This document shows positions 43,924-46,618 of a stretch of 64,000 nt of DNA, piece after piece. Made by a program: the position numbers and the translations under genes. Below the pieces are notes generated by a model, which saw only the letters and a list, made by a program, of their open reading frames with translations, was not told where the DNA came from and did not search any database. The stretch's first letter is position 1. Each line of letters starts with the position of its first letter. Location of the stretch: the sequence record MK327931.1. One strand, written 5' to 3'. The stretch is from Escherichia phage vB_EcoM_G17.

Positions 43924-45042
43924 TTAGATAATTTGTACTTCACCATAGATCTGCACGATTTGCTTTCCTGGATTCTCTTCAATGAGTTTAAGGAAAGATT
44001 TCAATGCTCCAATATGGTCTTCATAATACGCAATACGAATGAAGTTATATCCATTTTTTATTGCGTATTCTGTTTTGATTTTATCGTGTTTTTTCCTCAT
44101 AAGTCCGTTTCCCCATCCTGATTCACGTTCTTCAAAGTGATTACTACCATCATATTCAAATAACGTATTAATATCACGAATATAAAAATCATATGGAAGT
44201 TTTGATTTATTTTTTAAATCAGGAAATGTTTTCTCTCTTTCAGTAACAAACATTCCTCTCAAAAACTCTTTACAATCATTATGACCAAATGAGTGTGTTT
44301 CTAATTGGGAACAACATCCACACTTTTGTGCTTGTTTACTAGTAAACGCATAATAGTCTTGATTACACTCGTGTCCTTTATCACATATATATTTTACATA
44401 ATAACGACCATTTGATTTCTTGTAAACTTCTTTTAATGTATATCCTAGTTCATTACAGCGTGTGTTAGCAATTGTTTCACGCATTTCAGGTGTTATAAAA
44501 TATCTAACGTTCATTGATGTTTTTGTAATTATATCATTTATTCTTCGTGGTTGTGTAAATCCATCGGAATATGTGAATTTAATATATGACATTATCCCAT
44601 TGTCTAAATGTTCATTTTCATATATATAGCATCCTCTTTCCTCAAGAGAACCCAATTTGGTTACATAGTAATAATAATTTTCATCTGTATAGGTAAATGA
44701 TGGCTTGAATTTATTGTTTGTTATTTTTTCAAGCTTTGTTTTTAAACCAGTTATTTTATAATTATCATACAATACCCCATTATACATAATCAGTAAATTG
44801 TTATTACTATTTCCGTTTTTACCAAACTCACGTGATGATTTAACTGATAATCCAATAATAGTAATATTGTCAATATCTTTGTTTTTTAATTTTGCTTCTA
44901 TGTCATCAACATGATCCTTAGCAGTGAGTCCTTTTGAAACCCTTTTTATATCTTCAGGCTTCATCCATTCAAAACGCATACCAAGTTCTTCATGAAAATA
45001 AACTTTTTCACCATCTTCATTTAAATAATACTGTTCAAACAT
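43924..45042 (-). CDS. putative endonuclease (DUF559/Vsr-like C-terminal motif) in AT-rich island
   Basis: C-terminal FEYDGSNHF...D..K...G.NFIRI resembles the E-x-DG-x-x-H...R/K...G-x-V-R pattern of DUF559-type endonucleases; strongly AT-rich. Confidence 0.45.
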   Translation of the reverse strand: MFEQYYLNEDGEKVYFHEELGMRFEWMKPEDIKRVSKGLTAKDHVDDIEAKLKNKDIDNITIIGLSVKSSREFGKNGNSNNNLLIMYNGVLYDNYKITGLKTKLEKITNNKFKPSFTYTDENYYYYVTKLGSLEERGCYIYENEHLDNGIMSYIKFTYSDGFTQPRRINDIITKTSMNVRYFITPEMRETIANTRCNELGYTLKEVYKKSNGRYYVKYICDKGHECNQDYYAFTSKQAQKCGCCSQLETHSFGHNDCKEFLRGMFVTEREKTFPDLKNKSKLPYDFYIRDINTLFEYDGSNHFEERESGWGNGLMRKKHDKIKTEYAIKNGYNFIRIAYYEDHIGALKSFLKLIEENPGKQIVQIYGEVQII

Positions 45043-45336: not shown

Positions 45337-45696
45337 TTATTCTAATTCACTCATAGTACTAATAGTTAATCCCATTTCTTCTGCAATGTTGCATAACATA
45401 CCAACTGCATTACGAAGAATATCAGTGTTGTCCACCGATAATGATGAGTTTTCATTTACAGTTGAAGACTCAATGTAGTACTCAAAATAACGAGAAGTTG
45501 AACGCACAACTTTAACACCTTCATAGTTCTGTAGTTCAGAGTTGATACGCTCGATGAGCGAATCTTCCAGTACTCGATAGTCACCATTCATTCCACGTTT
45601 CCATCCATCAGCAGGACGGAAATAAAAAGTTTTTGTACGTTGAATTGTTGAGATTGTTAGTGGGTTGTATTCTGCGATTTCACTTAAAGATGCCAT
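45337..45696 (-). CDS. hypothetical protein (119 aa)
   Basis: Track ORF; terminator/promoter cassette at 45300-45333. Confidence 0.55.
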   Translation of the reverse strand: MASLSEIAEYNPLTISTIQRTKTFYFRPADGWKRGMNGDYRVLEDSLIERINSELQNYEGVKVVRSTSRYFEYYIESSTVNENSSLSVDNTDILRNAVGMLCNIAEEMGLTISTMSELE

Positions 45697-45802
45697 GTTG
45701 TATTCCTCATTTGGTGATGTACATAATACAGAAAGATAGAACAGGTGTCAATGTTTATATATCAAATATCCAAATACTTTGGTGTATCACATACTACATC
45801 AA

Positions 45803-45997
45803 CTAATCCTCGCTGAAGACAACAAGAAGGAATGACACGAACAATGCCGCATAACAAGGAGCTATCTTCATGTACCACGGGACTTCATAATACCATGTAC
45901 CTAATTCATCCCACGAAAAGAGTATACTCAAACCGAAGCCGATTAGCGATAGTACAATAAAAGAAATCCAGAAACGCGTTGAATATACTAATAACAT
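45803..45997 (-). CDS. small membrane protein (64 aa)
   Basis: Hydrophobic (FWISFIVLSLIGFGLSILF...). Confidence 0.5.
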   Translation of the reverse strand: MLLVYSTRFWISFIVLSLIGFGLSILFSWDELGTWYYEVPWYMKIAPCYAALFVSFLLVVFSED

Positions 45998-46035
45998 GTT
46001 ATGTTCCTTTGTGTAACCGAAGTCAACCCTTTCCT

Positions 46036-46551
46036 TTAATAATTATTCATTTCATCTTTGATTTGTTCTTCAATTTCGTCGAACATATCAGTACTAGATT
46101 CGTTCTTACTACTTACGTTCTGCATATCTTTAACGTACTGTGGACATTCAACATCAGTAAACTTATACCACGTAGGCTTCATCTGGAGCTTCTCAATCAA
46201 ACGATCACGAGACATTTTAATCTCTGACTCCGTTGGTACGTAGTCATTACAAAACTCAGTAGGGAAGCCGCTAATGTCGTTTACTTCAGTGTTTTGAATC
46301 TTCATACCACGACGCAGACATTCGTTGACAATATCAATATGACGCTTCTGTAAGTACAATAACTTGTCGTAAAAGAATGTCACATGACCTGAACCTAACA
46401 GATAAGTACTATTAATTTTGAAATCACGTACACGCTTACGTGCTTGAACGTGTTTTTGTACAGCACCAAATACACGTGGGAGTTCACGATATTCAGCCAT
46501 CAGATGTTGGTCAGCAAGTTCTTTAACGTGTACTAAGTTAATGCGTGTCAT
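46036..46551 (-). CDS. denV: pyrimidine-dimer DNA glycosylase (T4 endonuclease V-like)
   Basis: Long colinear identity to T4 DenV as recalled from memory: [30 protein letters not shown]...KRVRDFKI....[12 protein letters not shown]...KR.I......CL.RG..I..T.V.DIS..P.EF..DY.P.E..I......RL.EK....PTWYK. Confidence 0.85.
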
Positions 46552-46618
46552 GTATTCATCCTCTCGTCTTGATGAAATAATTATAGCAAAAAGGGCTGAC
46601 CGAAGTCAACCCTTTTCT

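What the first reader, a model, noticed from the sequence alone, without database searches (positions are those of the whole stretch)
46036..46551. T4 endonuclease V-like pyrimidine-dimer glycosylase with a long acidic C-terminal extension
The first roughly 125 residues match T4 DenV nearly colinearly ([50 protein letters not shown]), as recalled from memory. This protein is 171 aa with an additional acidic tail ([30 protein letters not shown]). A phage-borne UV-repair enzyme is known biology, but the extension is not part of the T4 enzyme and may mediate an interaction.
Basis: established knowledge. Interest (0 to 1): 0.45.

Follow-up and report, generated by a model that had tools for sequence, protein, structure and literature searches.

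The report
Phage UV-repair enzyme with acidic tail
This gene is the jumbo coliphage's copy of the well-known T4 enzyme that cuts UV-induced pyrimidine dimers out of DNA; it is already annotated in public genomes, and its only unusual feature is an optional acidic C-terminal tail of unknown role.

Summary
A 171-aa ORF lies on the minus strand at 46036-46551. Residues 1-131 align without gaps to T4 endonuclease V (E 2.5e-54, 65% identity). All catalytic and DNA-binding residues are kept, and the predicted fold matches the T4 crystal structure (rmsd 1.3 Å).

The window is an Asteriusvirus jumbo phage. The protein is 100% identical to Sharanji gp132 and 99% identical to 121Q gp217, both already annotated as this enzyme.

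The extension has three parts:
- Residues 132-144 form a helix shared by all Rak2-like jumbo-phage DenVs.
- Residues 145-154 are a Ser/Asn-rich linker that varies in length and evolves neutrally.
- Residues ~155-171 are a conserved acidic amphipathic helix, [IV]-E-x-Q-I-K-x-E-M-N.

Parts two and three occur in only about half of Asteriusvirus genomes, one Mimasvirus (XbC2) and a few metagenomic proteins, each next to tail-less close relatives. Nothing similar was found in any other protein.

The tail changes the enzyme from pI 9.4 (+6) to pI 6.2 (−2). Its function is untested. I favour a tethered acidic helix that tunes electrostatic DNA scanning, or one that docks a partner protein. This is an ordinary enzyme with a minor, undescribed variant feature.

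The parts
46036..46551 (-). denV-like CDS, 171 aa plus TAA stop: pyrimidine-dimer DNA glycosylase / AP lyase
   Evidence: ORF. T4 endoV E 2.5e-54. PF03013. PHROG 1183. 100% identical to Sharanji gp132.
46159..46551 (-). Catalytic core, residues 1-131; T2, R3, H16, R22, E23, R26, R117, K121, W128, Y129, K130 all conserved
   Evidence: Gap-free alignment to 2end_A. Invariant columns. Residue table. AF2 pLDDT 78-97 across blocks 1-130 (mostly ≥90) and Foldseek TM 0.93. pN/pS 0.10.
46120..46158 (-). Residues 132-144 ([13 protein letters not shown]): clade-specific C-terminal segment that replaces T4's YGKAIYA. It is shared with the tail-less DenVs of Rak2-like jumbo phages (consensus TxVExPxYYxxM). 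The helix starts at residue 138.
   Evidence: Alignment A1. AF2 helix from 138, with block pLDDT 91 (residues 131-140) and 86 (141-150) in the P0010 model. pN/pS 0.39.
46090..46119 (-). Residues 145-154 ([10 protein letters not shown]): Ser/Asn-rich linker, variable in sequence and length
   Evidence: Indels in ph0011 (-4 aa), in P0003/P0004 (linker absent) and in XbC2/P0008 (longer). pN/pS 1.06. Disordered (pLDDT below 50) in the P0010 model.
46039..46089 (-). Residues 155-171 ([17 protein letters not shown]): conserved acidic amphipathic terminal helix. Core motif is [IV]-E-x-Q-I-K-x-E-M-N, with hydrophobic residues at i, i+4, i+8.
   Evidence: Invariant E, Q, I, K, E, M, N across Asteriusvirus, XbC2 and the metagenomic P0008/P0010. 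pN/pS 0.14 for the last 13 codons. Hydrophobic moment peaks at 0.63 for the 11-residue window starting at 155. Helical in both AF2 models. No similar peptide elsewhere.
46580..46612 (-). PeSL-like early regulatory cassette upstream of denV: hairpin GGGTTGAC-UUCG-GTCAGCCC plus T-run. Its 5' arm carries the -35 box TTGACT, followed by an 18-nt spacer and a TG-extended -10 TATAAT.
   Evidence: Promoter scan, 11/12 match. 12 copies of the hairpin in the window against 0 expected. The PeSL concept is in PMC2839356 and PMC4122927.
46016..46035 (-). Truncated copy of the same cassette directly after the denV stop codon; a recombination junction
   Evidence: Sequence read. Homology with ph0011, BF17 and EC.P1 ends exactly at 46016, and those phages carry a complete cassette followed by other genes.
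45757..46147 (-). 391-bp segment (denV codons 135-171, the truncated cassette and a 64-aa ORF) that PBECO4-type phages replace with 33 bp encoding the short end LPEYYRSMI*
   Evidence: blastn breakpoints at 46148 and 45756. Many megablast hits also break at query position 1149, which is window 46148.

Best explanation
SHOWN. The ORF is the phage's DenV orthologue, a T4 endonuclease V-type cyclobutane-pyrimidine-dimer DNA glycosylase / AP lyase. In T4 endonuclease V (established knowledge, not tested here) the free α-amino group of Thr2, exposed once Met1 is removed, attacks C1' of the 5' pyrimidine of the dimer, with help from Glu23, and β-elimination then nicks the strand. Both residues are conserved here. 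The gene sits in a mosaic region of small ORFan genes.

INFERRED. It is probably an early gene, read from a σ70-type promoter embedded in a repeated hairpin cassette (PeSL-like).

SHOWN. The C-terminal extension has three parts:
1. A helix at 132-144 common to all Rak2-like jumbo-phage DenVs.
2. A flexible, neutrally evolving linker.
3. A ~13-17-aa conserved acidic amphipathic helix.
Parts 2 and 3 are optional. They are present in about half of Asteriusvirus genomes, one Mimasvirus and some metagenomic relatives. They always travel with denV up to the flanking cassette.

INFERRED (about 0.35 on its own). The tethered acidic helix folds back on, or electrostatically shields, the strongly basic DNA-binding face of the enzyme. 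This would weaken non-target DNA binding and tune the salt-dependent one-dimensional scanning known to matter for T4 endonuclease V. Acidic tails do this in T4 gp32, T7 gp2.5, SSB and HMGB1.

The confidence number refers to the shown parts: enzyme identity and tail architecture.
For: Identity:
- PDB T4 endoV E 2.5e-54, residues 1-131 colinear.
- PF03013 55.8 bits; PHROG 1183 E 1e-58.
- AF2 pLDDT 86 and Foldseek 2end TM 0.93, rmsd 1.3 Å.
- T2, R3, H16, R22, E23, R26, R117, K121, W128, Y129, K130 conserved.
- Core pN/pS 0.10.
- Annotated as this enzyme in Sharanji, 121Q, RaK2 and CBB.

Early-gene context:
- 11/12 σ70 promoter with TG extension inside the hairpin cassette.
- The CBB paper places endoV in the putative early region.

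Tail architecture:
- Alignments A1 and A3.
- Linker pN/pS 1.06 against 0.14 for the last 13 codons.
- In the P0010 model, helix 138-155 is confident, 155-165 is disordered and 164-177 is helical.
- Amphipathic moment peaks at 0.63.

Electrostatics: core +6 with pI 9.4, tail -8, whole protein -2 with pI 6.2; T4 DenV is +5 with pI 9.4.

Optional and modular:
- 18 phage records have the tail and about 17 close relatives lack it.
- Motif-bearing proteins sit at three separate places in the core tree.
- Homology breakpoints lie at 46148 and 46016.
Against: - No biochemical data exist for this protein or its tail.
- The cis-shielding mechanism rests only on charge, architecture and analogy. I had no model coordinates, so I could not check whether AF2 docks the terminal helix on the core.
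- The terminal helix has only moderate to low confidence: pLDDT 80 in the window model and 53-58 in the P0010 model. That fits a free helix as well as a docked one.
- Near-identical phages on the same host lack the tail, so whatever it does is dispensable.
- The selection estimate for the last 13 codons rests on very few substitutions (8 synonymous and 8 non-synonymous pair-differences).
- Early-gene timing is inferred from the promoter match and from the CBB paper's placement of endoV in a putative early region; no transcript data were examined.
Confidence: 0.8

Rival explanations
1. The terminal helix is a trans-acting docking peptide. Tethered by the flexible linker, it recruits DenV to, or hands the nicked abasic product over to, a phage or host partner. 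Candidates include an AP endonuclease, a polymerase, a ligase, SSB or a replisome component.
For: - The architecture is a conserved short amphipathic helix after a variable disordered linker, typical of short linear docking motifs.
- A hydrophobic stripe I-I-M is flanked by acidic residues.
- The motif survives across three lineages whose cores are only 68-71% identical.
- The low pLDDT of the terminal helix suggests it is not stably packed on its own core.
Against: - No other protein in the window, in 50,697 phage genomes or in 1.84 billion representatives carries a similar peptide, so it is not a shared recruitment tag.
- It matches no known clamp-binding (QL[SD]LF or PIP-like) or SSB-tip (DDDIPF) pattern. 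P0008 ends in -NLE, so the terminal aromatic residue is not required.
- Rak2-like phages are reported to lack a gp45 clamp.
- No gene neighbour consistently accompanies the tail.
Confidence: 0.3
2. The tail has no function of its own. It is a tolerated by-product of the cassette-mediated recombination and indels that shuffle this region, or of a small tandem duplication of the C-terminal segment.
For: - It is optional. About half of Asteriusvirus genomes and most Rak2-like phages lack it and end at ~144 aa.
- The 3' end of the gene is a recombination breakpoint.
- The linker evolves neutrally and has indels.
- Residues 132-145 and 154-169 show a weak internal repeat (P about 0.01 against shuffles).
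- One phage (SD-2_S15) tolerates an in-frame fusion of DenV residue 135 to the next gene.
Against: - The last 13 residues are nearly invariant among nine sampled Asteriusvirus alleles. They are 10/13 identical to XbC2 and 10/13 to P0008, whose cores are only 68-71% identical, while the adjacent linker is unalignable.
- pN/pS is 0.14 for the motif against 1.06 for the linker.
- The reading frame is kept open through indels of several lengths.
- The internal repeat has no support at the DNA level (P 0.65).
Confidence: 0.2
3. The conservation at the 3' end is at the nucleotide level. A regulatory element for downstream genes overlaps the last codons, and the peptide itself is not what is conserved.
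For: - Synonymous divergence is lower in the last 13 codons than in the core. pS is 0.048 against 0.174 within Asteriusvirus, and 0.29 against 0.74 between the window and XbC2.
- The tail always abuts the hairpin/promoter cassette.
Against: - There are very few synonymous sites (about 5). All codons concerned are the A/T-ending ones expected in a 35-39% GC genome, so identity by codon bias alone is not improbable (my estimate P about 0.17).
- No promoter or terminator match lies inside the tail codons.
- XbC2 has a different downstream sequence after the stop.
Confidence: 0.05

Closest known systems
Bacteriophage T4 endonuclease V (DenV; PDB 2END, 1VAS, 2FCC), Pfam PF03013 Pyr_excise
   Same: - 65% identity over residues 1-131 with no gaps.
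- Same N-terminal MTRINL with Thr2.
- Same Glu23, Arg3/22/26/117, Lys121 and W128-Y129-K130.
- Same all-α fold (TM 0.93, rmsd 1.3 Å).
   Different: - T4 is 138 aa and ends ...WYKYYGKAIYA; here the sequence after WYKF is unrelated.
- Y131 becomes F and Y132 becomes T.
- A further 33 residues are added, making the whole protein mildly acidic (pI 6.2 against 9.4).
DenV of Rak2-like jumbo phages: RaK2 gp291, PBECO4, GAP32, CBB_519, and 121Q gp217 / Sharanji gp132
   Same: Sharanji gp132 is 100% identical and 121Q gp217 is 99.4% identical, and both have the same tail. RaK2, PBECO4 and CBB share the core (67-95%) and the 132-144 segment TxVExPxYYxxM.
   Different: RaK2, PBECO4, GAP32 and CBB end at 144-147 aa and lack the linker and the acidic helix.
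Acidic C-terminal tails of DNA-binding proteins (T4 gp32, T7 gp2.5, E. coli SSB, HMGB1) - an analogy from established knowledge, not homology
   Same: A negatively charged, flexibly tethered C-terminal peptide on an otherwise basic DNA-binding protein. In the named cases it competes with DNA in cis and also binds partners.
   Different: - No sequence similarity.
- Here the tail is on a repair glycosylase, not an SSB or architectural protein.
- The conserved element is an amphipathic helix, not a terminal DDDIPF- or DF-type tip, and the terminal aromatic residue is not invariant.
PeSL (promoter-early stem-loop) cassettes of T4-type phages (Arbiol et al. 2010, PMC2839356; Comeau et al. 2014, PMC4122927)
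   Same: A repeated hairpin plus σ70-like promoter plus Shine-Dalgarno lies between small early genes. It sits at the junctions where related genomes differ.
   Different: Here the -35 box lies inside the 5' arm of the hairpin, not downstream of it. Rak2-like or Asteriusvirus phages are not mentioned in the 2014 paper searched.

Membership tests
T4 endonuclease V / Pyr_excise (PF03013) pyrimidine-dimer DNA glycosylases | Significant match to the family profile above the curated threshold | tested here: met
   PF03013 55.8 bits against a 23-bit cut-off, E 5.9e-15. PHROG 1183 E 1e-58 over 1-133.
T4 endonuclease V / Pyr_excise (PF03013) pyrimidine-dimer DNA glycosylases | Full-length colinear similarity to the characterised T4 enzyme | tested here: met
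   phmmer against the PDB: 2end_A E 2.5e-54, residues 1-131 aligned to 1-131 with no gap. 85/131 identical.
T4 endonuclease V / Pyr_excise (PF03013) pyrimidine-dimer DNA glycosylases | N-terminal Met-Thr, so that the α-amino group of Thr2 can act as the nucleophile, plus catalytic Glu23 | tested here: met
   MTRINL and E23 are present and invariant in 39 aligned homologues. The role of these residues is from established literature on T4 endoV.
T4 endonuclease V / Pyr_excise (PF03013) pyrimidine-dimer DNA glycosylases | Basic DNA-binding residues (R3, R22, R26, R117, K121) and the C-terminal aromatic W128-Y129-K130 segment | tested here: met
   All are conserved. Only Y131→F and Y132→T differ.
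T4 endonuclease V / Pyr_excise (PF03013) pyrimidine-dimer DNA glycosylases | All-α endonuclease V fold | tested here: met
   AF2 mean pLDDT 86, pTM 0.75. Foldseek against 2end/1eni/1enj: TM (target) 0.93, rmsd 1.3-1.4 Å, E 1e-15.
T4 endonuclease V / Pyr_excise (PF03013) pyrimidine-dimer DNA glycosylases | CPD-specific N-glycosylase plus AP-lyase activity; UV-repair phenotype | not testable with these tools
   Needs an enzyme assay on UV-irradiated DNA and complementation of denV or uvrA mutants.
SSB-type acidic C-terminal tip (…DDDIPF / T7 …DF) | Invariant terminal hydrophobic or aromatic residue preceded by an acidic run, shared with other proteins of the system | tested here: not met
   P0008 ends -EMNLE. 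The conserved element is internal ([IV]ExQIKxEMN). No other protein carries a similar tail.
Sliding-clamp binding motifs (β-clamp QL[SD]LF; T4/RB69 gp45-binding C-termini; PIP box) | Q-x-x-[LIM]-x-x-[FY][FY] or QL[SD]LF-like pattern at the C-terminus, with a cognate clamp present | tested here: not met
   QIKDEMNNY has Asp at the required hydrophobic position (read from the sequence). Rak2-like phages are reported to lack gp45. The motif patterns are recalled from memory.
PeSL regulatory cassettes (for the flanking repeats) | Repeated stem-loop plus σ70-like promoter plus SD upstream of small early genes, located at indel or replacement junctions between related phages | tested here: met
   12 copies against 0 expected. 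11/12 promoter match. Homology with ph0011, BF17 and EC.P1 ends inside the hairpin at 46016. The definition is from PMC4122927.

The most novel reading that the evidence does not exclude
The optional tail is a functional add-on module for a DNA glycosylase: a tethered acidic amphipathic helix, conserved across jumbo-phage genera. It either auto-regulates the enzyme's electrostatic sliding on undamaged DNA or couples dimer excision to a specific downstream partner. Phage populations would then keep 'tailed' and 'untailed' alleles that are swapped through the flanking promoter/hairpin cassettes.
Probability: 0.3. Interest if true: 0.4.

Novelty: new variant of a known kind. Interest (0 to 1): 0.22.

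Why it matters
The enzyme itself adds nothing new. DenV is textbook biology, and this exact protein is already annotated and listed in a publication.

The tail is a small, clean natural experiment. Near-identical phages carry the same glycosylase with or without a -8 charged tethered helix. T4 endonuclease V is the classical model for facilitated diffusion and processive target search on DNA, and it is used as a CPD-detection and repair reagent.

If the tail tunes scanning or recruits a partner, it would offer a natural handle on that mechanism. If it does nothing, it only illustrates how cassette-mediated shuffling remodels gene ends in jumbo-phage early regions.

Tried and rejected
1. Searching for the tail as an independent module found nothing beyond DenV.
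- tblastn of the last 34 aa against all phage genomes at E ≤ 10 found only DenV C-termini.
- Exhaustive phmmer of the 40-aa tail against 1.84 billion representatives gave 0 hits at E ≤ 1e-3.
- A profile of eight tails (A3) against the 5.8-billion database returned nothing at E ≤ 10, not even the known tail-bearing proteins. That search was probably uninformative because of the word prefilter on a short, compositionally biased query.

2. A regex and charge scan of all six-frame ORFs of the window for a second copy of the motif, or a similar acidic C-terminus, found none.

3. IMG/VR added only 121Q as a tail-bearing locus.

4. The clamp-binding and SSB-tip readings were rejected (see Membership tests).

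5. A tandem-duplication origin has only weak protein-level support (P about 0.01) and none at the DNA level.

6. A nucleotide-level constraint on the last codons is not distinguishable from codon bias with so few sites.

7. I could not inspect AF2 coordinates because no model file was exposed. Whether the helix is docked or free in the model remains unknown.

8. Pfam scans of ten neighbouring ORFs gave no families, so the neighbours give no functional context.

9. A literature search for a described C-terminal or acidic extension of pyrimidine-dimer glycosylases found nothing relevant.

Full report
**Observation.** The ORF listing shows an ATG-initiated ORF at 46036..46551 on the minus strand, 171 aa. 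A Shine-Dalgarno GAGAGGA lies 6 nt upstream of the ATG (sequence).

**Identity of the protein.**
- phmmer against all PDB chains gives T4 endonuclease V (2end_A and its mutants 1eni/1enj/1enk, 1vas, 2fcc) at E = 2.5e-54. Residues 1-131 align to residues 1-131 without a gap, with 85/131 identical.
- Pfam PF03013 (Pyr_excise) scores 55.8 bits against a 23-bit threshold.
- PHROG 1183, 'endonuclease V N-glycosylase UV repair enzyme', scores E 1e-58.
- An AlphaFold2 model built on a 39-sequence alignment has mean pLDDT 86. It superposes on the T4 crystal structures with target-normalised TM 0.93 and rmsd 1.3 Å.
- The residues that define the mechanism in T4 endoV are all present, and most are invariant in the alignments: Thr2 after the initiator Met, Arg3, His16, Arg22, Glu23, Arg26, Arg117, Lys121 and Trp128-Tyr129-Lys130. 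Their roles come from the established literature.
- Nei-Gojobori pN/pS for the core among nine Asteriusvirus alleles is 0.10.

**It is already known.** The window is an Asteriusvirus jumbo coliphage.
- The 3-kb surroundings are 99.7% identical to Escherichia phage Sharanji and 99% identical to 121Q.
- The protein is 100% identical to Sharanji gp132 (WNN14420.1, 'pyrimidine dimer DNA glycosylase') and 99.4% identical to 121Q gp217 ('endonuclease V').
- The Sharanji paper lists this protein among the repair genes (PMC11895373).
- The CBB paper lists 'UV repair endonuclease V' as a T4 homologue in Rak2-like phages and places it in the presumed early region (PMC5259590).

**Anatomy of the extension.** Aligning the window protein with jumbo-phage and T4-type homologues resolves three parts.
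1. Residues 132-144 ([13 protein letters not shown]) replace T4's YGKAIYA. All Rak2-like jumbo-phage DenVs share this segment (consensus TxVExPxYYxxM), including the many that stop at 144-147 aa (RaK2, PBECO4, CBB, GAP32). AF2 starts a helix at residue 138. In the model of the XbC2-like protein P0010, block pLDDT is 91 for residues 131-140 and 86 for 141-150.
2. Residues 145-154 ([10 protein letters not shown]) are a Ser/Asn-rich linker.
   - It is 4 aa shorter in ph0011, absent in P0003/P0004 (158 aa) and longer and unalignable in XbC2, P0010 and P0008.
   - Its pN/pS is 1.06.
   - It is disordered (pLDDT below 50) in the P0010 model.
3. Residues about 155-171 ([17 protein letters not shown]) end in a motif, [IV]-E-x-Q-I-K-x-E-M-N.
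   - The motif is invariant across Asteriusvirus, Xanthomonas phage XbC2 (Mimasvirus, 68% identical overall) and the metagenomic proteins P0008 and P0010.
   - pN/pS for the last 13 codons is 0.14, though on very few substitutions.
   - It is predicted helical in both models.
   - The segment's hydrophobic moment peaks at 0.63, with I, I, M at i, i+4, i+8.

The extension carries net charge -8. It turns a +6, pI 9.4 core, like T4 DenV (+5, pI 9.4), into a -2, pI 6.2 protein.

**Distribution.**
- tblastn against 50,697 phage genomes finds full-length (tail-bearing) matches in 18 Asteriusvirus records plus XbC2. About 17 other Asteriusvirus and Salmonella jumbo-phage records, and all Alcyoneusvirus (RaK2, K64-1), Erwinia, Cronobacter and Pectobacterium relatives, match only to residue about 139-145.
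- A search with the tail alone at E ≤ 10 hits only those same DenV C-termini.
- No other ORF in the window has the motif.
- An exhaustive phmmer of the tail against 1.84 billion representative proteins finds nothing at E ≤ 1e-3.
- In a neighbour-joining tree of the core, motif-bearing proteins fall in three separate places, each beside tail-less relatives.

So the tail is either old and repeatedly lost, or it has been moved by recombination.

**Genomic context and how the tail comes and goes.** All genes here are on the minus strand and are ORFans. Ten neighbours gave no Pfam family and mostly 'unknown function' PHROGs.

A repeated element, GGGTTGACTTCGGTCAGCCC, occurs 12 times in the window, all on the minus strand, against 0 expected.
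- It is a GC hairpin with a UUCG loop followed by a T-run.
- Its 5' arm contains a TTGACT -35 box. An 18-nt spacer and a TG-extended TATAAT follow.
- One copy sits directly upstream of denV (46580-46612).
- A truncated copy directly follows the denV stop codon (46016-46035).

In ph0011, BF17 and EC.P1, homology to the window runs through denV, tail included, and ends exactly at 46016 inside that hairpin. Beyond it those phages carry a complete cassette and different genes.

Against PBECO4, homology stops at 46148 (codon about 134) and resumes at 45756. PBECO4 replaces 391 bp (tail, truncated cassette and a 64-aa ORF) with 33 bp encoding the short end LPEYYRSMI*. Many megablast hits break at the same point.

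These cassettes match the PeSL (promoter-early stem-loop) elements described as mediators of modular shuffling in T4-type phages (PMC2839356, PMC4122927). denV is thus probably an early gene in a hyperplastic region, and the tailed and untailed forms behave as alternative alleles of the gene's 3' end.

**Mechanism.** The catalytic mechanism follows from membership in the T4 endoV family. The Thr2 α-amine attacks C1' of the 5' pyrimidine of a flipped-open cyclobutane dimer site. A Schiff base forms, the glycosidic bond is cleaved and β-elimination nicks the strand. This is inferred from conserved residues and fold, not assayed.

For the tail I rank three readings.
1. About 0.35: a cis-acting tethered acidic helix that shields the basic DNA-binding face and tunes salt-dependent non-target scanning. 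It is supported by the charge reversal, the linker-plus-helix architecture and analogy with gp32, gp2.5, SSB and HMGB1.
2. About 0.30: a trans-acting docking peptide for an unidentified partner. It is supported by the motif-after-linker architecture and the low pLDDT of the helix. It is weakened because no other protein shares the tag, no neighbour co-occurs with it, and it mismatches known clamp and SSB-tip motifs.
3. About 0.20: a neutral by-product of recombination or of a small duplication. The internal repeat 132-145 versus 154-169 has P about 0.01 at the protein level and none at the DNA level. This reading is weakened by conservation of the last 13 residues across lineages while the linker decays.

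A nucleotide-level constraint (about 0.05) cannot be separated from codon bias with so few sites.

**Verdict.** This is a correctly identified and already annotated DenV orthologue. The acidic tail is a real, partly conserved, optional and apparently undescribed variant feature of modest interest. Its function can only be settled by the truncation, DNA-binding and partner experiments listed under decisive next steps.

Noticed in passing
window minus strand: 1462, 4214, 7483, 10771, 43897, 45311, 46593, 51088, 52173, 53782, 53965, 57207 (20-nt starts): There are twelve copies of a hairpin/promoter cassette, GGGTTGAC-UUCG-GTCAGCCC plus TTTTTGCTATAAT, against 0 expected by chance. The -35 box TTGACT lies inside the hairpin's 5' arm. 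The cassettes resemble the PeSL elements of T4-type phages; the one PeSL paper I searched does not mention Rak2-like phages.
   Followed up: partly
window 46016-46035 (minus): A truncated copy of the cassette lies immediately after the denV stop. Homology with phages ph0011, BF17 and EC.P1 ends exactly here, marking a recombination junction.
   Followed up: yes
window 45803-45997 (minus): A 64-aa ORF (MLLVYSTRFWISFIVLSLIGFGL...FVSFLLVVFSED) has two hydrophobic, transmembrane-like stretches and an AAGGAA Shine-Dalgarno. It falls in an unannotated gap in Sharanji but is annotated as hypothetical in UE-S1 and JNE01. It has no Pfam or PHROG match. It is part of the 391-bp segment absent from PBECO4.
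   Followed up: partly
window 43924-45042 (minus): A 372-aa ORF matches the homing / HNH endonuclease PHROGs 559, 9084 and 7140 (E 7e-24) but no Pfam family. Its GC content is 0.25-0.30 against 0.35-0.40 for its neighbours. It is probably a free-standing homing endonuclease insertion. Related phages carry HNH genes at varying positions around denV.
   Followed up: partly
P0005 = Salmonella phage SD-2_S15 'endonuclease', 242 aa (relative of window 45337-46551): This protein is an in-frame fusion of DenV residues 1-135 to the homologue of the downstream 119-aa ORF (window 45337-45696). The fusion arose by a deletion that removed the tail and the intergenic region.
   Followed up: no
L002 (Xanthomonas phage XbC2, OP292654.1 347918-348457): This phage is recorded with host Xanthomonas vesicatoria but classified in Mimasvirus, with Cronobacter, Pectobacterium and Erwinia jumbo phages. 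It carries the only tail-bearing DenV found outside Asteriusvirus among sequenced phages.
   Followed up: no
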